This document shows positions 17,732 to 45,588 of a DNA stretch of 64,000 nucleotides, piece by piece. The DNA is taken from the IMG/VR virus record IMGVR_UViG_2974587864_000001. The stretch is one strand, 5' to 3'. Positions within the stretch are counted from its first letter, which is position 1. Every line of letters starts with the position of its first letter. A program made the translations under genes and the position numbers. The notes under the pieces were generated by a model. That model was not told the origin of the DNA. It searched no databases and worked only from the letters and a program-made list of their open reading frames with translations. This DNA comes from a virus (lineage: Duplodnaviria; Heunggongvirae; Uroviricota; Caudoviricetes; Straboviridae).

Positions 17732-18229
17732 TTATTCCATCACGATCCAGCCCATTAGCTGTTGATATCGCAATTCGAACGGGGTGATGAAAGAGCGGTT
17801 ATTGATAACCTTCGTCCCGTTGTAGGACTTAATCACTTCCTCACCACGAAGCACATATTCATATACTTCGTCCATAGTGTCGTAACGCACTTCTTCGACT
17901 TCGAAGCAGAAGTTGGAATATTCAATCATTCCGATCTTGTTCGCGTAACGGCGTTCGATGCAGCCCTGTTTTTCAATCTGAGTGATCGCAGTATCAATGA
18001 ACTGCGCAAGTGCTTGCATGAAATTACCACATTCGACTTCACGACCCCCGCTTGAGATAGCCAGGTAAACGCGGCTCAATCCATCATTGCCGATGTAACC
18101 GATACAGTCACCGCCAATATAGACAGACCAGACTTTACCCATCGGCCCCATACCCATACGATTCTCACTACGAGAAACACCTTTCAGTAACAGTGCCATG
18201 ATACCGCCGCGAACGTAATTCATTTTCAT
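17732..18229 (-). CDS. hypothetical protein (165 aa)
   Basis: ORF. Confidence 0.5.
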   Translation of the reverse strand: MKMNYVRGGIMALLLKGVSRSENRMGMGPMGKVWSVYIGGDCIGYIGNDGLSRVYLAISSGGREVECGNFMQALAQFIDTAITQIEKQGCIERRYANKIGMIEYSNFCFEVEEVRYDTMDEVYEYVLRGEEVIKSYNGTKVINNRSFITPFELRYQQLMGWIVME

Positions 18230-18239
18230 GATAAGCCCC

Positions 18240-18470
18240 TTATTTTTTCAGGTTGATTAACCAAGATGGTTGGGTTTCTAAACTAACCGCTTTCCAAGCA
18301 TATGCAACACTATAACCGGAATACGTCTGACATACAACAGCATTTTCATTTAAATATTTCACTTTGTGATCTGCCTCTTGTTCATCCAGGGCAGCACACA
18401 CGATATTCTTTTCATACACTCCGCCGTTTGGCTGGATAATGGTTTCTTCAATCAGATAAACGCTGTTCAT
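18240..18470 (-). CDS. hypothetical protein (76 aa)
   Basis: ORF. Confidence 0.5.
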   Translation of the reverse strand: MNSVYLIEETIIQPNGGVYEKNIVCAALDEQEADHKVKYLNENAVVCQTYSGYSVAYAWKAVSLETQPSWLINLKK

Positions 18471-18682
18471 GCTAATTCCTTCTCGATTGCTTCGATGATG
18501 TGGAGAACGTAACCGTTCAGTTCTTTTGCTTTATCAGCGGCTTCAACCATACCGTAACGAGGAACTTCTAAAACGTTCGCACCTTCGAGCAGGTTGCTTT
18601 CGATGTCTACGATTACGTAGCTCTCACCGATTACTGCGCCTTTTCTCCAGTCTTTTACGAACTTCACCATTTTAGCTTTCAT
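18467..18682 (-). CDS. hypothetical protein (71 aa)
   Basis: ATG 18682 preceded by AAGGAACGAG RBS within conserved leader; track start 18739 lies inside the leader/promoter. Confidence 0.55.
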   Translation of the reverse strand: MKAKMVKFVKDWRKGAVIGESYVIVDIESNLLEGANVLEVPRYGMVEAADKAKELNGYVLHIIEAIEKELA

Positions 18683-18760
18683 GTTCTCGTTCCTTTTGGC
18701 TGTTCCGTTTCGATATGTGTAATATAACAAAGCCCTCACGCGAACGCAAGGGCTTTTTTG
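18683..18760 (-). promoter_or_regulatory. stem-loop + TGTTATATT extended -10 + conserved leader cassette (PeSL-like)
   Basis: minus-strand reading: GCCCTTGCGTTCGCGTGAGGGC-TTTGTTATATTACACATATCGAAACGGAACAG..AAGGAACGAGAAC-ATG. Confidence 0.5.
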
Positions 18761-18762
18761 GA

Positions 18763-19416
18763 TTAACTGAATTTATTATAGAGAGTGAAATTAATCCCTA
18801 TAGAATTCAATGCTTTACATGTTGCATCAAGATCGGTTGGTTCGATTTCGATGATGTATTTCAACGCTGTGTTTACTGGAATGGTTTCTGGTTCTTCGAA
18901 AGATGCCAGGGTTGGCGCTTTCACCGTTTCTGGTTCAGCAAGCGCGGTTTTCTTTACGTCAAACGCTTCTTTGAACTTGTTGATCCTTTTTAGCAGATCA
19001 TCAATCAATTCGATGTTGGCTCCGTCGAATTGTTTGGTTTGTTCCAGCATACTCGTAATCTTTCCGTATGTAGTGCGTCTGGTTTGTTCCGTGTAATTCC
19101 CTACTTCATAACGGTCGATCCGGTCGATGATTGCCCGAACATGTCCAAGATTCGCGCGATCGAAATACGCAATCAACTTAGATTTTCTGAACACGAACAT
19201 ATATGGAGCATTACCGACAATGTAATGAGTTGCCGTTAGACCAAAACTAGGATCGATCAGAATTTTAACCGTGTTGAAATACGGGATTAAATTTATTTCA
19301 CGTTCAGGCAAACGGAAAACTTCATCTTTAAAGTTCTTCCCAATCCGGTCGATCTCTTCCAGAGTTTTACCCATCATCGACGAAATTATTTCAATTTTTT
19401 TAGATACATAAGCCAT
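18763..19416 (-). CDS. hypothetical protein (217 aa)
   Basis: ORF. Confidence 0.5.
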   Translation of the reverse strand: MAYVSKKIEIISSMMGKTLEEIDRIGKNFKDEVFRLPEREINLIPYFNTVKILIDPSFGLTATHYIVGNAPYMFVFRKSKLIAYFDRANLGHVRAIIDRIDRYEVGNYTEQTRRTTYGKITSMLEQTKQFDGANIELIDDLLKRINKFKEAFDVKKTALAEPETVKAPTLASFEEPETIPVNTALKYIIEIEPTDLDATCKALNSIGINFTLYNKFS

Positions 19417-19434
19417 TTTTCAATTCTCATTTAA

Positions 19435-19725
19435 TTAATGCATAAAAGATTTGACGTACTTCACGATTTCTTCACGACACATATCGACCGGAGTATCCTC
19501 AGCAATAGCAGCATGACAGAAGATTTCACCATCCAGCCAGAACGATAGCATGTACTGAATATCCCGACCTTCGTTTTCTTTCTGGTGTTTCTTGATGCGA
19601 TCAAATGCATCATCCATGCTTTCGGTAGCTGTAAGCATTTCAGATTCACCCGCTACAGCAGCCATTTCCCCAGCTTCATCACTGAATTCGCTTTCCAGTT
19701 CTTCCCAGTATAATATCGTTATCAT
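19435..19725 (-). CDS. hypothetical acidic protein (96 aa)
   Basis: ORF. Confidence 0.5.
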   Translation of the reverse strand: MITILYWEELESEFSDEAGEMAAVAGESEMLTATESMDDAFDRIKKHQKENEGRDIQYMLSFWLDGEIFCHAAIAEDTPVDMCREEIVKYVKSFMH

Positions 19726-19858
19726 GGATTACCCCAAACAGATTTTACATTTACAGAGAGGACATTCCGCCTCTTTAACGCGCAAGCGCTTTGTTGCTGT
19801 TCGCTTCGCTGTGTTGTGATCATACACATGCAAACAGCGATAACAGATCACCAATCGT

Positions 19859-20332
19859 TTAGCCGTCATAACCACCACCGCAACGAACATCACCTTCAAT
19901 GAACAGTTCGCGGTTATCTCTCAGGAGATTGTATTTCTTTTCGAGTTCCGGCCCGAATGCGTCCGCGTCGTCATACCAGTCATAGTTATAACTTCCGGTT
20001 TCCTCGTCGTATTCCGGTTCGTCGCCGCACTCATTGAAGTGAACGATTTTAACATCATCCAGATTCAGTTCTTTCAGCTTGTCCCAGATGCGGGTTATTT
20101 CGACGCTATTACATCCGAACGCTTCCAGTGTGATTGTACCGTCATCATGTACTTGAGGAACACCCCAGCGCGGACGATGATGAATTTCGGTGATCATATC
20201 CATCAGCGATTCAACGTTTGACTCACCGTAAATCTTTGCAACTTCCTGTTCTTTACCAGGGCGGACAAGTCCTATCCCGATAATGAAACTACTGCTTGAG
20301 CTATTGCTCACGAACCCAGAACGGATCTTCAT
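19859..20332 (-). CDS. hypothetical protein, paralog B of MKIRSGFVSNSSSSSF family (157 aa)
   Basis: N-terminal 16 aa identical to product of 23770..24282; last gene of vWA operon. Confidence 0.55.
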   Translation of the reverse strand: MKIRSGFVSNSSSSSFIIGIGLVRPGKEQEVAKIYGESNVESLMDMITEIHHRPRWGVPQVHDDGTITLEAFGCNSVEITRIWDKLKELNLDDVKIVHFNECGDEPEYDEETGSYNYDWYDDADAFGPELEKKYNLLRDNRELFIEGDVRCGGGYDG

Positions 20333-20520
20333 CGCCTTGCCTCGTATTTCGCGTTATCTGCGATTTTCTCATGATACAGGTTGTATGACAACACCAGCGG
20401 GATACAAGCTACTATAAGCCCGATGATAGCCAGTTGATATTCGCGTTTATCGAACGCCATGAATGTAATCGTAGCGCCCAGAATAAACACACCTAACGCA
20501 ATGATGAAGAATAATGTCAT
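20329..20520 (-). CDS. small membrane protein (63 aa, two predicted TM helices)
   Basis: LFFIIALGVFILGATITFMAF ... IIGLIVACIPLVLSY. Confidence 0.5.
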   Translation of the reverse strand: MTLFFIIALGVFILGATITFMAFDKREYQLAIIGLIVACIPLVLSYNLYHEKIADNAKYEARR

Positions 20521-21143
20521 TTTGGCAGGGTATCCATTTCACGAGATTTTGCTTTCAGGATGTCAATCACAGTAGTCATCGCCTGTTCTACATCACCATC
20601 ATAGTGAACCAGGAATGTTTTGTGAAGTCCCATGATCAGACGATTGATGATATAAGCCATTTCTGACGGTAACAGTTTACCATTCTGACGATCGTACTTT
20701 CCAAACAAGCGGTAGAGTTCTGCGCTGTTGCCTGGCTTCTCAATGCTGAAATTATGCATCCCAGACAGAATACCATCCAGATACAGAACAGTTTTGTTAT
20801 CACTACGCAGGTGTCCGCCGACCTTGTAGTAGTTGCTGAATACATACGGTTTTTCGCGGATATCTTCGATATCGAAATCACCATGATCTTCGATGTTGCC
20901 AACATGGGCGAAGAAATGATGATCTTCCAGTTCGAGAAGGATTGCACCCTTTTTGTATGGGAATCCGACTAAATCGATCTGCCAGCCATTTTCACCGACA
21001 AAGACATCATCGACAACCACGAAATCCGGCAGCATAGGCGCGTATGCGTGGTTCTTTTCGTTGTTTTCACGATAGGCTTGTGGTTCGGACAGATACAGGA
21101 TATCGCCTTTTACAACTTCACCCCAGAATACGTTACGTGACAT
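20517..21143 (-). CDS. hypothetical protein (208 aa)
   Basis: ATG 21143 with GAGGAAAATAAT spacing (track start 21182 rejected); directly downstream of vWA gene. Confidence 0.5.
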   Translation of the reverse strand: MSRNVFWGEVVKGDILYLSEPQAYRENNEKNHAYAPMLPDFVVVDDVFVGENGWQIDLVGFPYKKGAILLELEDHHFFAHVGNIEDHGDFDIEDIREKPYVFSNYYKVGGHLRSDNKTVLYLDGILSGMHNFSIEKPGNSAELYRLFGKYDRQNGKLLPSEMAYIINRLIMGLHKTFLVHYDGDVEQAMTTVIDILKAKSREMDTLPK

Positions 21144-21184
21144 ATTATTTTCCTCAATATGCCCCCTTTCGGGGGCGGTCATTG

Positions 21185-23431
21185 TTAGATTTTGACTTCT
21201 TTTTCTTCCAGGACGATTTCACATTCGAATGATGTGGTTTCCCAGACTTTCCAGAAATCGGATGGAATATTATCTTCTTTCGGAAGAATATCTTTTGCAG
21301 CGATAGAAACTTTGGTTTCTTCGAAGTCCAGATCCGCGAACCATGCATGGGCTACTACAACACCGTACATTACGCGACTTAAACGGGCATTCAGTTTACG
21401 GACTTCCTGAATCGTTGCCTTTGTCTGCTTATCAAGATACTCGACTACCTGATCTTTGTCAAGCGCATCCAGTTCAGATTTCACCTGATCGTAAGCCCAC
21501 AGGATAATCAGGTCGCCGTTGTTCAGTTTCTTCTTACCTTCTTCACGCTTCGCGACGGTAGCCGCTACAGCAGGAAGGGAGGAAACACCCTTGATTTTCA
21601 CGTTCAGTTCTTTCGACATGTAAACATCAGTCGATTCTGTGCGCTCAACCTTCGGAGAGAACCCGTAATCACGAATACCCTGTTCAGACAGCCATTCACC
21701 CGCAGCCTCACCAAAGCGCTGTTTCAGCCCTTCTGCGTTGCGCAGTCCGATCGCGTTGTCACGGAAGAACTTCATAACCTTCTGACGGCCTTTCAGGATT
21801 TCCAGACGCACGTTATCAGTCACGAACTCTTTACCGCTTAACCCGCGAGTCATGCCACGGTTAACCAGAGGCAGAGAGGTAAAGTCTACCAGAACCGACA
21901 TACGATCATCACCGATTTTTTCCAGCGGCTTGATAGTCAGGCCAGAAGCACGAAGGTTTTTCAGTGTCGGAATATCGGTTTCCAGCGGCAGAACTTTAAC
22001 GTTCACGATACCATCTTTAACGATGGTGAAGTTACGCACCTGCTTAGTTTCGACTTTTTCCGGCAGACCGAATTCTTTCTGTTTGCTTTCTGGGATAGTC
22101 ACATACCCTTCCAGATCCGTGTTGATGGAAATGTTCGGACGGGAACTGTTACCCACCAGATGTTTAACCGATACTTTGGTTGTGGTTTGGGTAAATTTCG
22201 GTGTCCAGACTTCATGCGCTACCATTTGCGCCGCCAGTGCTTTACGTTCTTCTGGGGTTGCAGCGTTTGCGATCTGTTCGGTCAGTTGATCCAGTGTATC
22301 ATCTTCTTTCTGTACAGTCTGACGGCCTGTGCGGTTATACGCCCAGTGCTCAGAAGACAGGTCGATCACTGTGTCAGTTTGTGCCAGCAGTTCGAGCGCA
22401 TCAACCAGAGTAAACGCGTTTTCGTCTGGAACCATGTTGTAATCAATACCATCAACGAAACGCTGTGATGGATCTACAACAGCCTGTGCAATCAGGTCTT
22501 TCGCGTTGGAGTAGTCCTGTTTGGTAAAGCAGTTGTCATACGCTTTGATCAGACGGACATCACCCAGCTTTTGAAGCACTTTCCATGCCAGATCAGGGTT
22601 CATTGTGTGCAGTGCATGATAAAGCACGACATACAGAACTTGCTGTTCGCTGGCGATGTTCGGATCGAATCCGTCAACATCATTAATCGCGTTTTCACCC
22701 AGCGCCCAGATGTTTTTGATGTGTTCTGGAACCAGCACAACACCGTTTGCAGCGTTCAGGACATACACGCGCCCTTCGTCCAGGTAGATCGCATGGGTAG
22801 CATCAGCAACTTTGACTTCGATACGTGCGGAAGTCTGCGCGGTGATGATTTCGTTAAATGCTGGTTCGTATGCGTCGAAACCTTCAACGAATTTGTGCAA
22901 TGCGTTGGTTGCTTCTGCCATTTTTTCCAGCAGAGGACGGTTTACATAATAACCGTATTCCAGGAACGCGATACTGTTGAAAGTCAGTGGCAGAACCGCA
23001 CACGCTTTCAGAATATCATCGGTACGCCAGCAGTTATCATAACCGTCTGTCAGGAAGATCAGGCTGTTCAGGTTGCCGTTTTCGGATTGCAGGTCGGTAG
23101 CGATTTCCGCAGCCAGATTCAACGGCTCAACAAAGCCAGTGCAACCCGTAGGTTTCAGATAACGGTCGATAGCCGCGCAGATGTTAGACAGGTCAGACAC
23201 ATTGCTAACCTTCTCACCACGGAACACCGTGCCGTAATCGCCTTTGCTGGAGAAGTACAGGATTGAAACGGTATCATCCTGTTTAACCAGACTCGCCAGG
23301 TTTGCTTTCAGATGTTTACGGATCTTAGGCAGTTCGTTATACATTGAACCGGATACGTCACACACGAAAACATGGTTTGTCGGGGTTGGCTTCGATACAG
23401 CGTTTTTGAATTCGATATTTGTGATTGACAT
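21185..23431 (-). CDS. von Willebrand factor A (vWA/MIDAS) domain protein, 748 aa
   Basis: N-terminal VFVCDVSGSMYNELPKI ... DTVSILYFSS ... TGCTGF ... LIFLTDGYDN = DxSxS...T...D MIDAS pattern. Confidence 0.7.
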   Translation of the reverse strand: MSITNIEFKNAVSKPTPTNHVFVCDVSGSMYNELPKIRKHLKANLASLVKQDDTVSILYFSSKGDYGTVFRGEKVSNVSDLSNICAAIDRYLKPTGCTGFVEPLNLAAEIATDLQSENGNLNSLIFLTDGYDNCWRTDDILKACAVLPLTFNSIAFLEYGYYVNRPLLEKMAEATNALHKFVEGFDAYEPAFNEIITAQTSARIEVKVADATHAIYLDEGRVYVLNAANGVVLVPEHIKNIWALGENAINDVDGFDPNIASEQQVLYVVLYHALHTMNPDLAWKVLQKLGDVRLIKAYDNCFTKQDYSNAKDLIAQAVVDPSQRFVDGIDYNMVPDENAFTLVDALELLAQTDTVIDLSSEHWAYNRTGRQTVQKEDDTLDQLTEQIANAATPEERKALAAQMVAHEVWTPKFTQTTTKVSVKHLVGNSSRPNISINTDLEGYVTIPESKQKEFGLPEKVETKQVRNFTIVKDGIVNVKVLPLETDIPTLKNLRASGLTIKPLEKIGDDRMSVLVDFTSLPLVNRGMTRGLSGKEFVTDNVRLEILKGRQKVMKFFRDNAIGLRNAEGLKQRFGEAAGEWLSEQGIRDYGFSPKVERTESTDVYMSKELNVKIKGVSSLPAVAATVAKREEGKKKLNNGDLIILWAYDQVKSELDALDKDQVVEYLDKQTKATIQEVRKLNARLSRVMYGVVVAHAWFADLDFEETKVSIAAKDILPKEDNIPSDFWKVWETTSFECEIVLEEKEVKI

Positions 23432-23770
23432 TTAAATTTTCTCGTATTTGAATTTTTCTAAAATTTCGTTAACTTTATTGCTTACTGCTTCGACTGTACG
23501 ATCACACCCGAACTTACGCGCCAGGAGTTCAACGTATTCATCCATCGTCGTGAGTTTGGATTCTGCAATGTCAAACGCAAGCGCATACATTACTGGATTC
23601 CATACCCGAACGATTTGGAGAGTATACTCGTTCAGTTCAAAACGTTCAAGATATTTTCGCAAAGAAAATACATCAAACGGTGCGGGGCGATCCTGGCTAA
23701 AGGGGATCGAATCCCCTAATGCATAGCGAGGCATAACAACACAGACTTCGGTTTTCAGTTTATTATCCAT
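23432..23770 (-). CDS. hypothetical protein (112 aa)
   Basis: ORF, stop/start overlap with neighbours. Confidence 0.5.
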   Translation of the reverse strand: MDNKLKTEVCVVMPRYALGDSIPFSQDRPAPFDVFSLRKYLERFELNEYTLQIVRVWNPVMYALAFDIAESKLTTMDEYVELLARKFGCDRTVEAVSNKVNEILEKFKYEKI

Positions 23771-24282
23771 CAGTGATGACTCTTTGATGTGTGTTCAAGG
23801 TTACGGAAGATGTTTCCATGTTCCAGTTGAGTTCCGATCGGGCCGCATTCATCGGAGTACGTGAATTCATAGATAAACACGCCGTCCTGATTGCCATACT
23901 TCGCGTTGTACTCTTCATACAACCACATTTTGATCAGAGCGTCTTTCTCTTCTGTTTCCAGATCGTACCAGTCTCGCCCGTCATACGCAAGCGCAATTTG
24001 AGGGTTTGAACGGTAACGGTTTTCCGCGCTTTCTTCGGTTTCCCAGTCATAGCGCTTATCGTCGTAGAACGATTCAAAGCTATTACCCAGATGACCGCCT
24101 AAGTCACGATGAACGTGATTGACCACTTCTTCCGCTGTCAACGGCGGATCGTAGTAACCACAATCAGGGACGCAATCGCCCATCATTTCGCGCAGGTTGT
24201 CGATATTAGTCGGATCTTTCGGGAACCGGACGATGAAACTACTTGATGAACTATTGCTCACAAAACCAGAACGGATTTTCAT
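23770..24282 (-). CDS. hypothetical protein, paralog A of MKIRSGFVSNSSSSSF family (170 aa)
   Basis: N-terminal 16 aa identical to product of 19859..20332. Confidence 0.55.
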   Translation of the reverse strand: MKIRSGFVSNSSSSSFIVRFPKDPTNIDNLREMMGDCVPDCGYYDPPLTAEEVVNHVHRDLGGHLGNSFESFYDDKRYDWETEESAENRYRSNPQIALAYDGRDWYDLETEEKDALIKMWLYEEYNAKYGNQDGVFIYEFTYSDECGPIGTQLEHGNIFRNLEHTSKSHH

Positions 24283-24512
24283 TTTACATCCTCAAATTGT
24301 AAGTTTTCTTTGGTTGCGTTCGCAATGGCTTTTTCGTTGCTCAGTGTTACTATGCGCAGACGTTCGCCAGTAAAGCCGTCGCATTCAGTGATACTCACCC
24401 AGTCAAAAGGTTTAGCCATTTCAATCGCACGTTCCAGCGATACGGTAGAACCGACCAAATCACTAAATGTATAGTAATCTTCGCTTAAACTTTCAACAGT
24501 ATAAATTTTCAT
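24279..24512 (-). CDS. hypothetical protein (77 aa)
   Basis: ORF, ATGA overlap. Confidence 0.5.
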   Translation of the reverse strand: MKIYTVESLSEDYYTFSDLVGSTVSLERAIEMAKPFDWVSITECDGFTGERLRIVTLSNEKAIANATKENLQFEDVK

Positions 24513-24751
24513 GATACTTTACCCTTTGTTTCGGATTTCAGGACGATGTTACTGTAAGGATCTTTTGCTACCAGTTCCCACAGGTCGCCAGGATGTTCCC
24601 CGCTACGGTAGACGGATGAACGGATGATTTCGTTAAACTTGCTCAGGGCTTCGTCGATGTCGTCATACCCGCGTTTGAGGGGCTTACGATTGCAACGAAT
24701 GAAGAACATTTCGTTGGTATTCTCCCCGCGTTCGGCGTTTTTATTTTTCAT
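24509..24751 (-). CDS. hypothetical protein (80 aa)
   Basis: ORF, ATGA overlap. Confidence 0.5.
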   Translation of the reverse strand: MKNKNAERGENTNEMFFIRCNRKPLKRGYDDIDEALSKFNEIIRSSVYRSGEHPGDLWELVAKDPYSNIVLKSETKGKVS

Positions 24752-25020
24752 TCGATCACCATTTTACCAATAACTTCTTCGTAGGTCACAGGGTTCGGTT
24801 CATAACCGTTAGCGCCTATTGTATCGCCTACTCTGTTCCCCACCAATACAGCAACCGCAACTTTCTTACCGTCTTTCCATGCGATGAATTCGAGATCATC
24901 GGCAACATACGGGAAGGTTTCGTGATTGTTCACTGCGTCGATACAGTCCAGAATAGTATCCGATGCGCAAATCAGATTACCAGGCTCACAATCAACAAGA
25001 CATTCAACAGTATAGATCAT
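24748..25020 (-). CDS. hypothetical protein (90 aa)
   Basis: ORF with GAGGAAG RBS. Confidence 0.5.
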   Translation of the reverse strand: MIYTVECLVDCEPGNLICASDTILDCIDAVNNHETFPYVADDLEFIAWKDGKKVAVAVLVGNRVGDTIGANGYEPNPVTYEEVIGKMVIE

Positions 25021-25034
25021 AATAACTTCCTCAC

Positions 25035-25056
25035 GAAAAAAGCCCCTTTCGGGGCT
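25035..25056 (-). terminator. rho-independent terminator (minus strand)
   Basis: GCCCCGAAAGGGGC + TTTTTT on minus strand. Confidence 0.6.
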
Positions 25057-25063
25057 TGATTAA

Positions 25064-25342
25064 TCAGTGTCCGAACACACCACGGATAGACTCTGCGAAA
25101 GCGTACAGTTCAGGGTTTTTCGCTTTCACTGTTTCGATTTGTTCCAGGATGTAATCTGGTTTGTATTTCGCACCGAACCAGCAGTAAGAGAAAGAACGAT
25201 CCCACATGAACACGTTGTAGTATTCACCGTTACGCACTTCAACCATCACGTAACCTGGATTAGAACCCAGCGGGTAATCTTTCAGGAGATTGAATTTCGC
25301 ACCAGCGCCAGTACATCCGTTAAACAGGTCATTAAAAGTCAT
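25064..25342 (-). CDS. hypothetical protein (92 aa)
   Basis: ORF. Confidence 0.5.
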   Translation of the reverse strand: MTFNDLFNGCTGAGAKFNLLKDYPLGSNPGYVMVEVRNGEYYNVFMWDRSFSYCWFGAKYKPDYILEQIETVKAKNPELYAFAESIRGVFGH

Positions 25343-25384
25343 TGGTATGTTCCTTTTCAGTTTCGTTTCAACAAGGCCAATATA

Positions 25385-25600
25385 TTACACTTCGTTAAAC
25401 CATGCAAGATATTTCTTCTCTTGTCTGTTCAAAACGTCATAACAAGAGGCGACACAAACGGTTTCCCACACAACTTCATCGTAAGCATTCACGAAGCGAA
25501 TGATCAGAGTTTTGCCATTAGTCATCAAAGCCGGAGTGAACCCAAGTTCTTTAACCGCTTTTACTTTCTTCTGGAATAACGCTTTAGTCATGTTAGCCAT
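25385..25600 (-). CDS. hypothetical protein (71 aa)
   Basis: ATG 25600 with AAAGGAGG RBS and partial conserved leader (CGAAACAAAGGAGG). Confidence 0.5.
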   Translation of the reverse strand: MANMTKALFQKKVKAVKELGFTPALMTNGKTLIIRFVNAYDEVVWETVCVASCYDVLNRQEKKYLAWFNEV

Positions 25601-25646
25601 TTTGTGCCTCCTTTGTTTCGGTAAAGCTAAGGTATCACTATCCTGG

Positions 25647-26183
25647 TCAGTATGCAATGTTTAATTTTGCAAATTTACCAAAATGTTTTATCGCTTCCCG
25701 ATCGTATGCTTTTGCAGCCTCGTATTCATCACGATAGGAACCGATATGTTTAACCTTACCATCAATCTTTATCTGTGCAATGTAACGTATTCCTGTTGGT
25801 TGATTGCGCACACATACACCCTTGAATCGACTGGTTGCTACTTTTCGTTTAGTTCGGTTCTGGCAGTTTCGAGATTGATCCGCTTCACGCAAGTTGTCAA
25901 TCCCGTCGCCAGCCTCAACACCATTTTTGTGATCAATCACATCAGGCAGTTTTCCGGTTGCAACGTAGTATATGATTCGATGACGTAGATAGTTTTTCCC
26001 ATCAACTTTAAGACGGGTATACCCTTCTTTCATCTTCGTGCCTGGTTCAGTACCGACGAGTGTAGATTTCTTGTGTTTAACCCAAACAATCTTACCCGTC
26101 TGTACGTTTACCGCAACGTTTTCAAGAAGGGCATCAATGCCCCTCTTTTCCTCTTCAATTGTTCTTAACCCGTTATGTGACAT
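25647..26183 (-). CDS. HNH homing-type endonuclease with AP2-like DNA-binding domain
   Basis: HNH_3-like DVIDHKNGV...DNLREADQSRNCQN motif; C-terminal FKGVC...IRYIAQIKIDGKVKHIGSYRDEYEAAKAYDREAIKHFG AP2 signature. Confidence 0.75.
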   Translation of the reverse strand: MSHNGLRTIEEEKRGIDALLENVAVNVQTGKIVWVKHKKSTLVGTEPGTKMKEGYTRLKVDGKNYLRHRIIYYVATGKLPDVIDHKNGVEAGDGIDNLREADQSRNCQNRTKRKVATSRFKGVCVRNQPTGIRYIAQIKIDGKVKHIGSYRDEYEAAKAYDREAIKHFGKFAKLNIAY

Positions 26184-38785: not shown

Positions 38786-38809
38786 CGAAAAAAGGGGCCG
38801 AAGCCCCCT
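38786..38809 (-). terminator. rho-independent terminator after phoH
   Basis: GGGGGCTTCGGCCCC + TTTTTT on minus strand. Confidence 0.6.
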
Positions 38810-38812
38810 TGA

Positions 38813-40210
38813 TTAAAAGTTCTCTTCGACGAATGCAGCCAGTCGCCCACGATATACGGTATCCAGGATCACATGACTTGAATGTCCGTACTCTTTAAGT
38901 TTTTCAACCGCATACACAAATCCGTTGTTAACAGCAGTGTTGCGCGGGTTGTCAATCTGTTTAATGTTCCCGCATAGTATCAGAAGGGTGTTCTCACCGC
39001 AACGGGAAATGATGGATTTGATTTCGTGATTGCTCAAGTTTTGACATTCATCAACAATCAGAACCGAACCTTTACCCGGATCAGGATGCCCGATTGAGCG
39101 CCCACGGAAGTAATACAGGCTAGGGAACTGGACAACGTTTTTCTCCAGCAGCCCTTCTACATATTTGTCAACTTCCGGTTGATCCTTAAACAGAATGTTC
39201 AGGCTCGTAATACATGGTTCCACAGCAGGACGCAGTTTTTCGCCCAGAGTACCAGGTAAGAACCCGATTTCGCCCGACAGAGGACTATCCGATTTAACAT
39301 ACATCAGGTTTGCAAAGTGTCCGGCGTTAACCAGGTGCATTGCACCAGCAACAGCCAGCATTGTTTTACCTGAACCAGCAGCGCCCATAATGGTCACCAC
39401 ATCTGTATTTTTATCCATAATTGCATCAATGAATGATGCTTGCAGTGCATCGCGAGGCTGAATTGTTTTCATCAGCTTACGTTTCATCGCGGATTCGTGT
39501 TTGATTGGTAAGAGTTCAAGCTGATACTCTCCAGCAGCCACTACACGCCCTACAAGTTCACCATCCGATAGAATGTATTGGTTCGGGTAATAATCGCCGT
39601 CAGGAAGCGAGGAATAGCTTATTTGGGCTACTTCCCCAACATATCCTAACACCTCGACATCATCCCAGAATCCAGGGATATCGACATAACCAGAATACAA
39701 CACATCGCTATCTTTCAGCGAGTCATCGCCCGTGTATTGTTCAACAGGACATCCCTTAGACATCGCGATCAACAGCATGTTAATGTCGCGGGTGATCAGG
39801 GTTGCGTTTTCCTGCATACAGGTTGCAATGATTCGCGCATCTTGTTTATCAAGCGGGAACTCTTCTGAACCGATATAATCAACGATACGGAGTTTCACGC
39901 TTTCCGGCAGTGCTGGGTTCGTCAGGTTCAACGAAACCCCTGTTTGGGTAATTGCTTCGTACTTCTGCCCCAGGATTACTTTAGACAGGAGGCGGATCGC
40001 CAATCGTGCTTCATGAGCGGTTCGCTCTTTGCTTTTCAGGTGATCCAGTTCTTCCATTGTCGCAGAGGTGATAATGATTTCAGTATCCGCCTCAACGAAT
40101 GAGAAGATTGAATATGGGTTCGAGATTAAAACGTTGGTATCTAGAACATATTTCATAGAAGTTTTCCTGTTAATTGCGGGGTACGCGGATTCGCACCCCG
40201 CGCACTGCAA
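38813..40210 (-). CDS. phoH: PhoH-like ATPase with N-terminal PIN domain (PhoH2-type)
   Basis: N-terminal YVLDTNVLISNP (PIN); Walker A GAAGSGKT, LIVDECQN. Confidence 0.8.
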   Translation of the reverse strand: MQCAGCESAYPAINRKTSMKYVLDTNVLISNPYSIFSFVEADTEIIITSATMEELDHLKSKERTAHEARLAIRLLSKVILGQKYEAITQTGVSLNLTNPALPESVKLRIVDYIGSEEFPLDKQDARIIATCMQENATLITRDINMLLIAMSKGCPVEQYTGDDSLKDSDVLYSGYVDIPGFWDDVEVLGYVGEVAQISYSSLPDGDYYPNQYILSDGELVGRVVAAGEYQLELLPIKHESAMKRKLMKTIQPRDALQASFIDAIMDKNTDVVTIMGAAGSGKTMLAVAGAMHLVNAGHFANLMYVKSDSPLSGEIGFLPGTLGEKLRPAVEPCITSLNILFKDQPEVDKYVEGLLEKNVVQFPSLYYFRGRSIGHPDPGKGSVLIVDECQNLSNHEIKSIISRCGENTLLILCGNIKQIDNPRNTAVNNGFVYAVEKLKEYGHSSHVILDTVYRGRLAAFVEENF

Positions 40211-40681
40211 TTACATACCCAAACGGATAATATGGATATATGGGAACGGATGAAGATGACTTGAACGCATACACAAGGTCAGCGTTTTTGCCAGTTCAAA
40301 CCGTTCGTCGATCGTCGTGTCACATTCATCGAAAATCAGGTTGATTGCCTGATACTTGATCGTTTGTCCACGGAAAATGGAAGTCAGATCTTGACGTTTC
40401 GACAGAATGAAAGACGAATCAGCGCCCTTATCCAGTCCATGTTCTACCGCAGCACAAATACCCATCTGCTTTGTCGGTGCAACGTAGATATTCAGTGTCC
40501 CTTTAGACTGCTTGATGATATCGAAAGCCGCTTTGGTTTTACCCGACATCCGACCCATATCCAGCGCAGTTTCGAAGATAGACACACCGCCGCATTCTTG
40601 CCCCCAACGCCCATCAATGATTCGCGCAAGGTGCAGGTTACGTGACTGCTTTACAGCGTCAACATAGAATTGTGAAATCAT
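40211..40681 (-). CDS. small P-loop NTPase (156 aa)
   Basis: Walker A GRMSGKTKAA, Walker B LIFDECD. Confidence 0.45.
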   Translation of the reverse strand: MISQFYVDAVKQSRNLHLARIIDGRWGQECGGVSIFETALDMGRMSGKTKAAFDIIKQSKGTLNIYVAPTKQMGICAAVEHGLDKGADSSFILSKRQDLTSIFRGQTIKYQAINLIFDECDTTIDERFELAKTLTLCMRSSHLHPFPYIHIIRLGM

Positions 40682-40690
40682 GTTGTCGCC

Positions 40691-41086
40691 TTATGCAAGT
40701 TCAACGTGTGGTGCGTCGATAAATTTCGTTTCAATCGGAAGGTTTGGATCGTTCTTCCAGTTGATGCCGTAGCGCAGTTTTACACCCAGTTCATCAGCGG
40801 CTTGTTTCACTGCATTCAGGACAGGCAACCACACTTTCGGGTTAGTCTGCCAGCCAGCAGGGAGAACGCTAGGATACAGATCCACAGCATCACCAGTGAT
40901 GTGTTTTGAGTTCATGGTCTGGGAAACACCCTTGCGGACGTTCTCGCGCTGTTGCTCTACGGTGCGCAGACCTTCGCGTACACCAAAATCAACAGGCGAG
41001 AGTTCCAGAGCACGTTTTACCACCTTAACCAGTTCCGGCTTCACGCCTTGCAGGTTGTTCAGGCTTTTCTGACTAAATTTAAACAT
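40691..41086 (-). CDS. endolysin, L-alanyl-D-glutamate peptidase (M15 family, T5 Lys-like)
   Basis: KPELVKVVKRALELSP.DF...GLRT...SKHITGDAVDL...LGVKLRYG...HVELA parallels phage T5 endolysin. Confidence 0.8.
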   Translation of the reverse strand: MFKFSQKSLNNLQGVKPELVKVVKRALELSPVDFGVREGLRTVEQQRENVRKGVSQTMNSKHITGDAVDLYPSVLPAGWQTNPKVWLPVLNAVKQAADELGVKLRYGINWKNDPNLPIETKFIDAPHVELA

Positions 41087-41153
41087 ACATACCTCTTTAT
41101 GAAAATACCCTATGGGCTACACAGGGTATTTACGGTTTAAGAGGCGCAACGTT

Positions 41154-43632: not shown

Positions 43633-43927
43633 CTTCTCTCACGGCTTCGGCTTTCTTTTCAGCGGTCAGTATGTGATGTACTACAGCGTTTCGGATTCCC
43701 CAGAGATATTCAATCATCTGCATATCTTCAACGGTGTGATAGCCTTTCGTATCACATTCAAATACAATTTCATCGCGTTCTGCCATTGCCACCTGTGCGG
43801 TAGAAGGACAAATAACCATTCCAGAGTATTTTTCAATCAACGATTCCAGTGTACGCGGTTTTGTTGGAATGTCAATAGATACCGGAACCATTCGCATCGT
43901 TGAATCATTATGGGATTGATAAATCAT
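43547..43927 (-). CDS. hypothetical protein (126 aa)
   Basis: ORF. Confidence 0.5.
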   Translation of the reverse strand: MIYQSHNDSTMRMVPVSIDIPTKPRTLESLIEKYSGMVICPSTAQVAMAERDEIVFECDTKGYHTVEDMQMIEYLWGIRNAVVHHILTAEKKAEAVREVEQREEIRYNRMSAQEKDEAYEVYRRSR

Positions 43928-44220
43928 CAGAATGTGATCTCCGCAAACTGCATTCTACGCTCAATCGCATGGATAGCGTTATCACGCTGTTCTTTGTTTT
44001 CATATCCAGCCCAGGTAATCGGGGTTGAACAGATCAGGTGAAAAGTGATTGCTGGGTGTCTCTTCCCTTCAACAACGATTGTTGCATCATCTTCGATCCA
44101 GGTTACATGATCCAGATTCACCGGATAGTTTCTTACGGTAACAGTTTCACCAACCATAGGCGACACATCCAGAATATCACGATCGCGGACATATGATTTA
44201 ATACGAGATACGATTAACAT
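43927..44220 (-). CDS. hypothetical protein (97 aa)
   Basis: ORF. Confidence 0.5.
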   Translation of the reverse strand: MLIVSRIKSYVRDRDILDVSPMVGETVTVRNYPVNLDHVTWIEDDATIVVEGKRHPAITFHLICSTPITWAGYENKEQRDNAIHAIERRMQFAEITF

Positions 44221-45371
44221 TATTTCAACTCCACTGCATATACATCGGTTTCAGGGGCTTTGTGTACGCGCATATCTTTACCACATACCGCATAAGCCGG
44301 ACAATTACGGCAACCGTTATGATCCTTGTTGCCAGTCAGTTCTTTACGGAACTGTTTTGTTTTCGGGTGTTCCCAGATATCCTTCACAAAATCTTCGGCT
44401 TCCAGAACATCCAGACCTTCTTCCCAGCCACCTTCAACCCAACGTTCGGTAAACGAGCAAGGGAAGAACTGACCACGTTCGTTGATGTAAGAGCTAAACA
44501 TCGTCGCTTCACAGTCTTCGGCGTATTGCTTGTACTGTTCGAAGTTCGGGTGTCCCTCCATCGCTTCAACGAAAGCGGGGGCTGAACAGCTATCGAATCC
44601 AAATCCTACACCAGAATCGAGGCAATATTCAACAAGTTTTTTATATTGTTCGCGGGTAACGGTGTCCCAGTTCTTACCGCGTCCTTTTTGTTTCAGTCCC
44701 AGGAACACGATCGCGTTGACTTGTTTCAGGCGCGGATCATTCTTCACGGCATCAACCACGTTAAACGCATCATCATAGGTTTTCGAGCTAACCATGAAGT
44801 GAAGGTTGATTTGCTGTTGTCCGGCTTCTGTCAGGTTCGCTACTGAGTCGAAAGCGACATCAAAACCAGCGTGTTTATAAACCGATACCGCAACAGCCCC
44901 AGCAACCGCCGCTAAACGCGCTGCAACGTCTTTTGATACGTCAGCAATGGTAAGGTTCGGCACAATGCCTTTAGAACGCGCATACGCCATCATATCGAAC
45001 ATATCGGGGTTTGTTTGCCCCTGTGCATCAGCACCGAGTGCGCATTGAGTAAGCCAGGGCATTTTGTCGATGATTTTTTTGAAGTTGGCAAGATCCATGT
45101 TGAACCCGTTCGGGTTATTGGACTTGTAGCAGAACCCGCAGAGTTTACCCGCTGGCCCGTTGCATTTGGTAGTGATCTCGATATCGAGAATTTCGGGGAA
45201 TGGTGCGTATTCTGGATCGTGGGAATATGTTGCACCCCAGCGAGCGAATTCACCAGTATCAACGTTGAAATTATAGTTGTAGAACTTCGAGCGAGCGAAG
45301 CGCATATTGCCGTGTTGATAGATGAACAGGGACGGCGCTTTGATGCTGGTAACGATATCGACAGTTTTCAT
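44220..45371 (-). CDS. radical-SAM-like enzyme with non-canonical CX7CX2C cluster and C-terminal SPASM/twitch-like Cys cluster
   Basis: EITTKCNGPAGKLCGFCY (radical-SAM-like context with 7-residue insert); C-terminal CSF...GCRNCPAYAVC; start set to ATG 45371 just after upstream stop (track start 45488 overlaps neighbour). Confidence 0.45.
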   Translation of the reverse strand: MKTVDIVTSIKAPSLFIYQHGNMRFARSKFYNYNFNVDTGEFARWGATYSHDPEYAPFPEILDIEITTKCNGPAGKLCGFCYKSNNPNGFNMDLANFKKIIDKMPWLTQCALGADAQGQTNPDMFDMMAYARSKGIVPNLTIADVSKDVAARLAAVAGAVAVSVYKHAGFDVAFDSVANLTEAGQQQINLHFMVSSKTYDDAFNVVDAVKNDPRLKQVNAIVFLGLKQKGRGKNWDTVTREQYKKLVEYCLDSGVGFGFDSCSAPAFVEAMEGHPNFEQYKQYAEDCEATMFSSYINERGQFFPCSFTERWVEGGWEEGLDVLEAEDFVKDIWEHPKTKQFRKELTGNKDHNGCRNCPAYAVCGKDMRVHKAPETDVYAVELK

Positions 45372-45381
45372 AATATAATTC

Positions 45382-45588
45382 TCAAAATTTAACATGGGAT
45401 TGGAAGACAGCGCGAGCAAGGCTTTCATTGTCGAACGGTATCGACTGGTGTTTCTCTTTGCTGTCAATGTTAACGCGCCAGAACTCACTCGAACCGTTTT
45501 TGGTGGAGTAATGCATCAGCGTTACCGTTTTATTCTTTTCCAGGAAAGTACGTTTGTCAATCTCTGTTTTGATTTCGTGCTGCATCAT
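45382..45588 (-). CDS. hypothetical protein (68 aa)
   Basis: ORF. Confidence 0.45.
   Translation of the reverse strand: MMQHEIKTEIDKRTFLEKNKTVTLMHYSTKNGSSEFWRVNIDSKEKHQSIPFDNESLARAVFQSHVKF

What the first reader, a model, noticed from the sequence alone, without database searches (positions are those of the whole stretch)
44220..45371. Radical-SAM-like enzyme with non-canonical CX7CX2C and C-terminal auxiliary Cys cluster
The segment EITTKCNGPAGKLCGFCY resembles the radical-SAM core (xIxxTxxCNxxCxYC) but has a 7-residue insert between the first two cysteines. Further Cys residues near the C-terminus (CSF...GCRNCPAYAVC) resemble SPASM/twitch auxiliary-cluster domains. Such domains are typical of protein- and peptide-modifying maturases (anSME-like, RiPP maturases). 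No radical-SAM enzyme of this size is part of the T4 core. In a phage whose lineage has been reported (from memory) to carry an uncharacterised DNA modification, a radical enzyme is a candidate for DNA or nucleotide hypermodification. It could alternatively modify a virion or host protein.
Basis: inference. Interest (0 to 1): 0.65.

Follow-up and report, generated by a model that had tools for sequence, protein, structure and literature searches.

The report
Phage radical-SAM enzyme with tagged partner proteins
The gene encodes a real iron-sulfur radical enzyme, and its genomic partners suggest it modifies a very large, undescribed family of proteins that all begin with the same 16 amino acids, rather than modifying phage DNA.

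Summary

The X7 spacing is one state of a loop that varies from X3 to X17 among homologs. The SPASM domain is reduced to a twitch-like form with one auxiliary cluster.

The new result concerns context. In at least 66 of 84 related phage loci, the enzyme gene lies within 10 kb of 1-13 same-strand genes. Their products all start MK(I)RxGFVSNSSSSSF and then diverge completely. The window holds two such genes (19859-20332 and 23770-24282). The association also holds in reverse: 28 of 79 and 49 of 93 tag-seeded stretches contain the enzyme. In bacteria the order is antiviral-STAND protease, 136-aa protein, tag protein, radical-SAM/SPASM enzyme. The tag family has about 10,800 cluster representatives and no Pfam, NCBIfam or literature record.

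I infer that the enzyme modifies the tag post-translationally. The chemistry is unknown, and the DNA-hypermodification idea is not supported.

The parts
44220..45371 (-). Radical-SAM / reduced-SPASM (twitch-like) enzyme, 383 aa (leN N_169)
45129..45164 (-). Codons for C70-X7-C78-X2-C81, the predicted radical-SAM [4Fe-4S] ligands
   Evidence: All three Cys are conserved in 28 homologs. The first loop varies in length (3, 5-13, 17) among about 130 homologs, with CX3 in 36 and CX7 in 34 of the 32-50% identity group. It is the canonical CX3 in the bacterial clade.
45237..45329 (-). N-terminal four-stranded beta domain (residues 15-45); candidate docking site for the tag (inference)
   Evidence: AF2 strands E15-20, E23-27, E32-36 and E42-45. 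The motif Y..F....G...R is invariant between the phage and bacterial clades. No RRE/PqqD Pfam hit.
44283..44588 (-). Auxiliary-cluster region: C262, then C287-X12-G-X4-C305, then C354-X2-C357-X5-C363
   Evidence: Pfam SPASM at residues 287-358, 24.5 bits. C262, C287, C305 and C357 are conserved family-wide. The X3C and the final Cys of the full SPASM motif are absent here but present in 26 of 28 bacterial-clade relatives.
23770..24282 (-). Tag protein 1 (170 aa, leN N_122, phrog_7397): MKIRSGFVSNSSSSSF + variable body + C-terminal YSDExG..LEHGNIFRN..SHH. Predicted substrate.
24235..24282 (-). Codons 1-16 of tag protein 1 (the invariant tag)
   Evidence: The degenerate DNA pattern matches 24235-24267, with 0 matches expected by chance. 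Positions R4 and S9-S13 are 100% conserved across the 253 tag ORFs in the standard register.
19859..20332 (-). Tag protein 2 (157 aa, leN N_117): MKIRSGFVSNSSSSSF + different body ending GGGYDG. Predicted substrate.
   Evidence: These are the only two tag genes in the whole leN genome.
20285..20332 (-). Codons 1-16 of tag protein 2
   Evidence: The pattern matches 20285-20317. Its codons differ synonymously from those of tag protein 1.

Best explanation
The gene encodes an active radical-SAM enzyme. C70, C78 and C81 hold the SAM-cleaving [4Fe-4S] cluster on a loop four residues longer than usual. A reduced SPASM (twitch-like) domain holds one auxiliary cluster, ligated by C262/C287/C305/C357 and possibly C354.

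Its substrates are most likely the exposed N-terminal tails of phage-encoded proteins that begin MK(I)RxGFVSNSSSSSF. In this phage these are N_117 and N_122. The tail would dock on the enzyme, perhaps on its conserved N-terminal beta domain. The 5'-deoxyadenosyl radical would abstract a hydrogen from a tag residue, and the auxiliary cluster would take the second electron. The product would be either an intramolecular cross-link, as made by SuiB, PqqE and WgkB, or an oxidised Ser/Thr, as made by anSME and BtrN. Either would give a -2 Da product.

Shown: the fold, the Cys conservation, the two-way gene association, and the invariance and predicted disorder of the tag. Inferred: that the tag is the substrate, the docking site, and the chemistry.

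The biological role is probably in phage-host conflict, because the bacterial version of the pair sits in an operon with an antiviral STAND protease.
For: Fold and cofactor sites are covered.

- **Nearest relatives:** a bacterial-clade relative has Pfam Radical_SAM (49 bits) plus SPASM. It matches SuiB by sequence at E 2.7e-13 and is nearest, below threshold, to the MftC, WgkB and PqqE models.
- **Forward association:** 66 of 84 enzyme-seeded loci hold at least one tag ORF within 10 kb, 261 ORFs in all, 1-13 per locus, every one on the enzyme's strand. A looser search finds tags in five more loci.
- **Reverse association:** 28 of 79 IMG/VR stretches and 49 of 93 GTDB stretches seeded only by the tag DNA pattern contain the enzyme.
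- **Operon structure:** in bacteria the tag gene abuts or overlaps the enzyme gene, ranging from a 1-nt gap to a 22-nt overlap. The fixed order STAND-protease, p136, tag, rSAM appears in about 15 loci from several phyla.
- **Co-variation:** the bacterial clade pairs T14 in all 21 aligned tags, and T9 in 15 of them, with a full-SPASM enzyme. The phage clade pairs S9/S14 tags with a reduced-SPASM enzyme.
- **Protein-level selection on the tag:** all six Ser codons are used, and nucleotide identity is 0.78 at codon positions 1-2 against 0.51 at position 3.
- **Payload diversity:** the regions after the tag fall into 88 unrelated clusters.
- **Accessibility:** the tag's first 10 residues are predicted to be flexible.
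- **Co-occurrence in isolates:** 175 records carry the tag protein and 174 carry the enzyme, from the same genera.
Against: No biochemical data exist, and no co-fold of enzyme and tag could be run. In this phage the enzyme gene lies 20-25 kb from the two tag genes. No RRE-type leader-binding domain is detectable. The substrates would be whole proteins of 51-270 aa, which is unusual for SuiB-like enzymes, although anSME also acts on whole proteins. The RB43 ortholog is truncated, and one Klebsiella phage has the gene split (PMC9960720), so the gene is dispensable at least in the laboratory.
Confidence: 0.6

Rival explanations
1. The tag is a docking handle rather than the substrate. The variable bodies of the tag proteins would act as adaptors that bring different host or phage targets to the enzyme, or regulate it, and the radical chemistry would happen on those targets.
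For: The gene association is the same as for the main explanation. The bodies are extremely diverse, with 88 clusters, as expected of specificity modules. Residues 13-20 of the tag region are part of the folded core.
Against: Twelve consecutive residues are invariant, including a run of five Ser. That is more than a docking strand usually needs and is typical of a recognition-plus-modification site. The nearest characterised enzymes act on the peptide they bind. In bacteria a single tag protein of uniform length, about 137 aa, accompanies the enzyme.
Confidence: 0.15
2. This is the first reader's idea: the enzyme modifies DNA, a nucleotide or another small molecule, and its linkage to tag genes is incidental.
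For: Twitch-type enzymes such as BtrN, MoaA and BlsE act on small molecules and appear among the fold matches. A conserved basic patch, LKQKGRG, follows beta-6. Restriction-resistant DNA has been reported for KP27 (PMC5219037).
Against: No nucleotide- or DNA-modification gene is a conserved neighbour. KP15, whose DNA is restriction-sensitive, and KP27, whose DNA is resistant, both carry the gene. leN has a separate NrdD and NrdG-like gene and ordinary Dam/Dcm-type methylases. The two-way association with tag genes is far above chance.
Confidence: 0.08
3. The protein is a degenerate radical-SAM relic. The expanded CX7 loop and the truncated SPASM domain would have abolished cluster binding.
For: Pfam Radical_SAM does not detect it. 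The RB43 copy is truncated and another phage has the gene split.
Against: All cluster Cys are conserved across homologs of 47-88% identity, and overall identity stays at 35-70% between very distant phages. Loop length varies while the Cys stay fixed. From memory, an expanded loop (CX14CX2C) is tolerated in Burkholderia QueE.
Confidence: 0.03

Closest known systems
SuiB (streptide Lys-Trp cross-linking radical-SAM/SPASM maturase, PDB 5V1Q) and kin (PqqE, SkfB, CteB, WgkB, MftC)
   Different: There is no RRE/PqqD-like leader-binding domain, only a small all-beta N-terminal domain. The phage enzyme lacks the full 7-Cys SPASM motif. The first Cys loop is X7. The presumed substrates are whole proteins whose conserved element is the extreme N-terminus, present in up to 13 copies per genome. 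No curated family threshold is reached.
anSME / AtsB (anaerobic sulfatase-maturating enzyme)
   Different: The substrate motif is different: (C/S)xPxR in sulfatases against GFVSNSSSSSF here. anSME has two fully ligated auxiliary clusters. There is no sequence-level family match.
BtrN and other twitch-domain radical-SAM enzymes
   Same: These carry a single auxiliary cluster on a shortened SPASM-like domain. BtrN is the only PDB hit of the family profile, and it falls on the C-terminal region (E 0.025).
   Different: BtrN acts on a small molecule (2-deoxy-scyllo-inosamine). The twitch subfamily model NF033640 scores 23 bits against a cut-off of 170.
FxsA/FxsB-type 'peptide-processing' modules of STAND/vWA conflict systems (Kaur, Burroughs, Iyer, Aravind 2020, PMC7159879)
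   Same: Both involve a rapidly diverging small protein with a conserved terminal motif containing FxSxx, plus a radical-SAM/SPASM enzyme, linked to STAND NTPases and vWA proteins. Here the tag contains F7-V8-S9-N10-S11, the bacterial operon has a STAND protease, and a vWA gene lies between the two phage tag genes.
   Different: In Fxs systems the conserved motif is at the C-terminus and is released by a zincin peptidase. No FxsB model appears among the listed NCBIfam hits (only the best 25 of 54 were shown for the bacterial relative). The resemblance may be coincidental.
Avs2-trypsin-MBL antiviral STAND systems
   Same: Upstream of the tag-enzyme pair, the bacterial operon carries an MBL-fold protein (PADLOC LmuA/Avs1a-like, E 2.8e-62 and 4.9e-52) and a trypsin-like protease fused to a NACHT/STAND NTPase (Avs2 E 9e-16).
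   Different: The published systems (abstracts; PMC12642450) are described without a radical-SAM enzyme or a tag protein. The phage has neither the STAND nor the MBL gene.

Membership tests
Radical SAM superfamily | Three-Cys motif (canonically CX3CX2C) ligating the SAM-binding [4Fe-4S] cluster | tested here: met
   The motif is C70-X7-C78-X2-C81 with an aromatic residue (F80) before the last Cys. It is conserved in 28 homologs. The spacing is a variant: relatives range from X3 to X17.
Radical SAM superfamily | Partial (beta/alpha)6 TIM-barrel core | tested here: met
Radical SAM superfamily | Score above the Pfam PF04055 gathering threshold | tested here: not met
   There is no PF04055 hit for the window protein. 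The threshold is met by homolog P0086 (CX3 form, precomputed) and by the bacterial relative (49 bits against 29.5).
Radical SAM superfamily | SAM-binding motifs (GGE-type, ribose and GxIxGxxE motifs) | tested here: inconclusive
   ALGAD (G113 and D115 invariant) aligns with ALGGGNP of the bacterial clade at the GGE position.
Radical SAM superfamily | Reductive cleavage of SAM | not testable with these tools
   This needs anaerobic reconstitution.
SPASM domain (PF13186 / TIGR04085) | Profile score above the curated cut-off | tested here: inconclusive
   Pfam gives 24.5 bits against a cut-off of 21.5, which passes. TIGR04085 gives 24.5 bits against 27, which fails.
SPASM domain (PF13186 / TIGR04085) | Seven-Cys motif CX9-15GX4C ... 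CX2CX5CX3C ... C for two auxiliary clusters | tested here: not met
   C287-X12-G-X4-C305 and C354-X2-C357-X5-C363 are present. The X3C and the final Cys are absent. Only C262, C287, C305 and C357 are conserved family-wide in phages. The full motif is present in 26 of 28 bacterial-clade relatives.
Twitch-domain radical SAM enzymes | Shortened SPASM-like domain with one auxiliary [4Fe-4S] cluster | tested here: inconclusive
   The Cys count fits: four are conserved, and CX2C is retained in 70 of about 100 members of the 32-50% identity group. The profile gives a weak BtrN match. NF033640 scores far below its cut-off. Cluster stoichiometry needs spectroscopy.
RiPP radical-SAM maturases with RRE | PqqD-like winged-helix RiPP recognition element | tested here: not met
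   There is no Pfam or NCBIfam hit in residues 1-60. The AF2 model shows four beta strands and no helices there.
RiPP radical-SAM maturases with RRE | Substrate gene encoded beside the enzyme gene | tested here: met
   Tag genes are adjacent in most phage loci and overlap the enzyme gene in bacterial operons. In this window they are 20-25 kb away.
Glycyl-radical activases (NrdG / PflA) | Small activase without a SPASM domain, paired with a glycyl-radical enzyme | tested here: not met
Phage DNA-hypermodification radical SAM enzymes (QueE; thymidine-hypermodification isomerases) | Co-occurrence with deazapurine or 5-hmdU pathway genes, and family-level similarity | tested here: not met

The most novel reading that the evidence does not exclude
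The enzyme-plus-tag pair may be a mobile effector module of bacterial antiviral STAND (Avs-like) immunity that large phages have captured and expanded. In bacteria, the trypsin-like STAND protease would cleave the radical-SAM-modified tag protein, for which the invariant K2 and R4 are plausible sites, to release or activate an effector or signal. Phages would then deploy arrays of up to 13 modified, hypervariable, acidic tag proteins as decoys, inhibitors or mimics of that pathway. This would be a post-translationally modified anti-defence arsenal, with more than 10,000 sequence clusters that currently have no annotation.
Probability: 0.15. Interest if true: 0.9.

Novelty: new variant of a known kind. 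Interest (0 to 1): 0.7.

Why it matters
Database records already call the enzyme a radical-SAM protein, so that part is not new. Its constant pairing with one invariant N-terminal 16-residue tag is absent from Pfam, NCBIfam, PADLOC and the searchable literature, and PHROGs lists it only as 'unknown function'. The tag heads a protein family of about 10,800 clusters at 50% identity.

This gives a concrete, cheap experiment: co-express two genes and weigh one peptide. That test could assign a chemistry to a large block of phage 'dark matter'. It could also define a new class of radical-SAM-modified proteins that are whole proteins, tagged at the N-terminus and multi-copy.

Because the bacterial version sits in an operon with an Avs-like STAND protease, it may connect radical-SAM protein modification to phage-host immunity. 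The result also removes this gene as a candidate for the reported DNA modification in the KP27 lineage.

Tried and rejected
- **PDB sequence search** with the single protein found nothing meaningful. The family profile gave only a weak BtrN match.
- **Pfam Radical_SAM** did not hit the window protein.
- **First neighbour comparison.** BLASTP across four loci found no shared neighbour. The tag proteins share only a 16-residue, Ser-rich N-terminus, so clustering across 84 loci was needed to see them.
- **Word-indexed homolog search** with a tag protein returned only 35 proteins. The exhaustive profile search was needed to size the family.
- **Libraries.** Pfam, PHROGs, NCBIfam and PADLOC scans of tag proteins gave no annotated family. 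Cluster-member look-up gave no informative names.
- **Literature.** Searches for the motif strings returned nothing relevant. Searches for phage radical-SAM systems returned unrelated cases: Campylobacter phages, a cyanophage, and Ophion.
- **DNA-modification reading** was rejected for the reasons given under the rival explanations.
- **NrdG identity** was rejected because the phage has a separate NrdG-like gene.
- **Bacterial partners in phages.** HMMs of the p136, STAND and p304 proteins found no counterpart in the window or in the phage loci.
- **Immediate neighbours.** The ORFs flanking the gene (43927-44220 and 45382-45588) are conserved only in close relatives and carry no tag.
- **Tool failures.** One alignment call failed on a frame error.

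Full report
**Identity of the window.** The 4 kb around the finding is 100% identical to Cronobacter phage vB_CsaM_leN and leE (Straboviridae, Pseudotevenvirus). Window position x corresponds to KX431560 position x + 47243. The target ORF is N_169, already annotated there as 'putative radical SAM protein'.

**The observation.** The ORF runs from the ATG at 45371 to the TAA ending at 44220 on the minus strand and encodes 383 aa.
- Residues 65-82 read EITTKCNGPAGKLCGFCY, which gives C70-X7-C78-X2-C81.
- The C-terminal third holds C262, C287, C305, C354, C357 and C363.
- In an alignment of 28 homologs (47-88% identity), C81, C262, C287 and C305 are invariant, and C70, C78 and C357 are at least 90% conserved. 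C354 and C363 occur only in the longer-tailed subset.
- Pfam detects only SPASM (24.5 bits against a cut-off of 21.5). PHROGs places the protein in phrog_7293, 'unknown function'. NCBIfam gives only sub-threshold hits.

**Fold.** AlphaFold2 on that alignment gives pLDDT 90.8 and pTM 0.89. The model has a four-stranded N-terminal beta domain (residues 15-45), an alternating strand-helix core, and a C-terminal Cys-rich domain.

**The 'non-canonical' motif in context.** In the 32-50% identity group, CX3 occurs 36 times and CX7 34 times. The distant bacterial clade has the canonical CX3CX2C. X7 is thus one state of a tolerated loop insertion.
- The bacterial clade carries the full SPASM CX2CX5CX3C motif (26 of 28).
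- The phage clade mostly keeps only CX2C (70 members) or a single Cys (25 members). This amounts to a twitch-like, single-auxiliary-cluster form.
- A bacterial member (Veillonella parvula, L273) passes Pfam Radical_SAM and SPASM. It is nearest, below threshold, to the MftC, WgkB and PqqE models, and it matches SuiB by sequence at E 2.7e-13.

**What travels with the gene.** The family is large: 1140 clusters at 90% identity in the word-indexed search.
- Four contexts compared by BLASTP showed no shared neighbour.
- I then fetched 80 IMG/VR loci with 10 kb of flank and clustered all ORFs.
- The dominant neighbour clusters all begin MK(I)RxGFVSNSSSSSF.
- In total there are 261 such ORFs in 66 of 84 loci, with 1-13 per locus and every one on the enzyme's strand. 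Median length is 129 aa (range 51-270) and median pI is 4.7.
- A looser search adds five more loci, including a variant with F or Y in place of G6.
- Positions R4 and S9-S13 are 100% conserved, and K2, G6, F7, V8, S15 and F16 are 96-98% conserved. After two hydrophobic residues, conservation vanishes.
- The regions after the tag fall into 88 BLAST clusters, 53 of them singletons.

**The tag in the window.** No tag gene lies within 10 kb of the enzyme gene. Two lie further off on the same strand: 19859-20332 (N_117) and 23770-24282 (N_122).
- A degenerate DNA pattern for the tag hits exactly these two sites, with none expected by chance.
- They are the only two tag genes in the whole leN genome.

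**Reverse test.**
Of the 79 stretches examined (a few kb each), 28 contain an enzyme homolog.
- Scanning 185,579 GTDB species genomes gave 93 stretches, of which 49 contain the enzyme.
- Among isolates, N_122 homologs occur in 175 records and the enzyme in 174, from the same genera. This agreement is not independent evidence, because these phages are closely related.

**Protein-level constraint and family size.**
- Over 454 distinct gene starts, every Ser position uses both the TCN and AGY codon families, and Arg uses both AGR and CGN. Nucleotide identity is 0.78 at codon positions 1-2 against 0.51 at position 3. The peptide is conserved, not a DNA element.
- A profile of tag proteins searched exhaustively against 1.84 billion cluster representatives finds 10,807 proteins at E up to 0.001 and 1,966 at E up to 1e-10. 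In all but 3 of the 150 listed hits the match starts within the first three residues.
- No Pfam, NCBIfam or PADLOC family covers these proteins, and the only PHROG is of unknown function. No paper in the searchable library contains the motif in a relevant context.

- Subfamilies share C-terminal motifs, for example YSDxDG..LEHGNIFRN..SHH in N_122 relatives, or a terminal W/Y-[DN]-G.
- The picture is an exposed N-terminal tail on otherwise diverse small acidic proteins.

**Bacterial version.** In roughly 15 loci from Lachnospiraceae, Veillonella, Verrucomicrobia, Sulfuricurvum, Terriglobales and others, the order is fixed, on one strand, and overlapping or abutting:
1. a trypsin-like protease fused to a NACHT/STAND NTPase (PADLOC Avs2 E 9e-16), sometimes preceded by an MBL-fold protein (LmuA/Avs1a-like, E 2.8e-62 and 4.9e-52);
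2. an unknown protein of about 136 aa;
3. one tag protein of about 137 aa (MKIRxGFVTNSSSTSF ... YFN.....W);
4. the radical-SAM/SPASM enzyme;
5. sometimes a protein of about 304 aa.

This rests. The tag and enzyme genes range from a 1-nt gap to a 22-nt overlap. Avs2-trypsin-MBL is a known antiviral system (PMC12642450), described there without these extra genes. None of the other bacterial components has a counterpart in the phage loci.

**Interpretation.** The fold, the nearest relatives, the operon structure, the invariance and predicted accessibility of the tag, and the parallel change of tag and enzyme between clades all point the same way. The phage clade has S9/S14 tags with a reduced SPASM domain. 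The bacterial clade has T14 in all 21 aligned tags and T9 in 15 of them, with a full SPASM domain. Together these indicate a protein-modifying maturase whose substrate is the tag.
- The chemistry is not determined.
- The closest relatives make intramolecular cross-links. The tag offers K2, R4, F7, F16, N10 and a Ser run.
- A fully Cys-ligated single auxiliary cluster would also fit alcohol oxidation of the anSME or BtrN type.
- I put the substrate assignment at about 0.6 and any single chemistry well below that.

**The DNA-modification idea.**
- The lineage memory traces to KP27, whose DNA resists restriction while KP15's does not (PMC5219037). Both phages carry the gene.
- leN has its own NrdD and NrdG-like gene, a dCTPase and ordinary methylases, but no hydroxymethylase or deazapurine genes are annotated.
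- No such gene is a conserved neighbour of the enzyme.

**Comparison with known systems.** Functionally this looks like a SuiB/PqqE/anSME-type maturase. It fails membership of every curated family tested (see the membership table).
- Thematically, the nearest described thing is the FxSxx-peptide plus radical-SAM/SPASM 'peptide-processing' module of STAND/vWA conflict systems (PMC7159879).
- The tag contains FVSNS, a STAND protease heads the bacterial operon, and a vWA protein (21185-23431) sits between the two phage tag genes. A 28%-identical vWA homolog lies beside the enzyme and tags in one unrelated 307-kb contig.
- In Fxs systems, however, the motif is C-terminal and the enzyme family is different.

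**Verdict.** The enzyme annotation already exists. The tag family and its pairing with the enzyme appear to be undescribed and can be tested directly.

Noticed in passing
window 21185-23431 (-): A 748-aa vWA-domain protein (Pfam VWA, VWA_2 and VWA_3; phrog_2426, function unknown) lies between the two tag genes, together with three small ORFs (20329-20520, 20517-21182, 23432-23770). A 28%-identical homolog sits about 4.4 kb from the enzyme gene in an unrelated 307-kb viral contig (L075/L120). The association is sporadic, not general.
   Followed up: partly
L210, L217, L226, L228, L238, L243, L251, L257, L258, L265, L266, L272, L273, L299 (GTDB genomes): A conserved bacterial operon: (MBL-fold) - trypsin-like protease/STAND (Avs2-like) - ~136-aa unknown - ~137-aa tag protein - radical-SAM/SPASM enzyme - (~304-aa protein with a Pfam M1E1E6-like C-terminus). 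It occurs across several phyla.
   Followed up: partly
L219 (NZ_JBHSCL010000010.1, 'Flagellimonas marina', contig 178,077 bp): This contig is 97% identical to window 17790-25857 and has the length of a Pseudotevenvirus genome. It is probably a phage contig inside a bacterial assembly.
   Followed up: partly
Escherichia phage RB43 (NC_007023 92715-93843; P0003) and Klebsiella phage Kpn35c1: The RB43 ortholog is annotated as 340 aa with a divergent C-terminus that lacks C354, C357 and C363, and tblastn needs two pieces. This indicates a frameshift or a sequencing error. A paper reports the gene split in Kpn35c1, with a GIY-YIG homing endonuclease in the region (PMC9960720).
   Followed up: partly
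L237 784-2307, L294 2376-4490, L215, L229, L235, L284, L290: This is a third arrangement, in which the tag gene lies downstream of a distant enzyme homolog. Some of these tag-bearing proteins are large (507 and 691 aa).
   Followed up: no
L072 11057, 11678, 12046: A tag variant with F or Y in place of the otherwise 96%-conserved G6 (MKSRNFFVSNSSSSSF).
   Followed up: no
window 19859-20332 and related loci: Subfamilies of tag proteins share C-terminal end motifs: ...W[YF][DN]G, G[RY][DN]G, or a terminal W in the bacterial 137-aa form. Another large subfamily (30 members, 23 loci) has CxxC pairs like a zinc ribbon. The C-terminal half of N_117 hits phrog_132 ('head-tail adaptor', E 4.5e-9), a label I did not verify.
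   Followed up: no
window 44220 and 43927-44220 (-): The enzyme's stop codon overlaps the start of the downstream 97-aa ORF by one base (TAATG), which suggests translational coupling. That ORF is conserved only in close relatives.
   Followed up: partly
window ~38800-41100 (KX431560 86056-88329; N_157-N_160): GenBank annotates two adjacent 'PhoH family' CDS and two adjacent 'endolysin' CDS. These could be split genes or paralogs.
   Followed up: no
P0298 (Vibrio owensii, 794,527-bp contig) and L006 (Vibrio harveyi, 97-kb contig): 70%-identical enzyme homologs occur in Vibrio assemblies with no tag gene within 8 kb. The neighbours include SIR2, ARPP and exonuclease VII-like genes. These may be a prophage or a phage-plasmid.
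   Followed up: no
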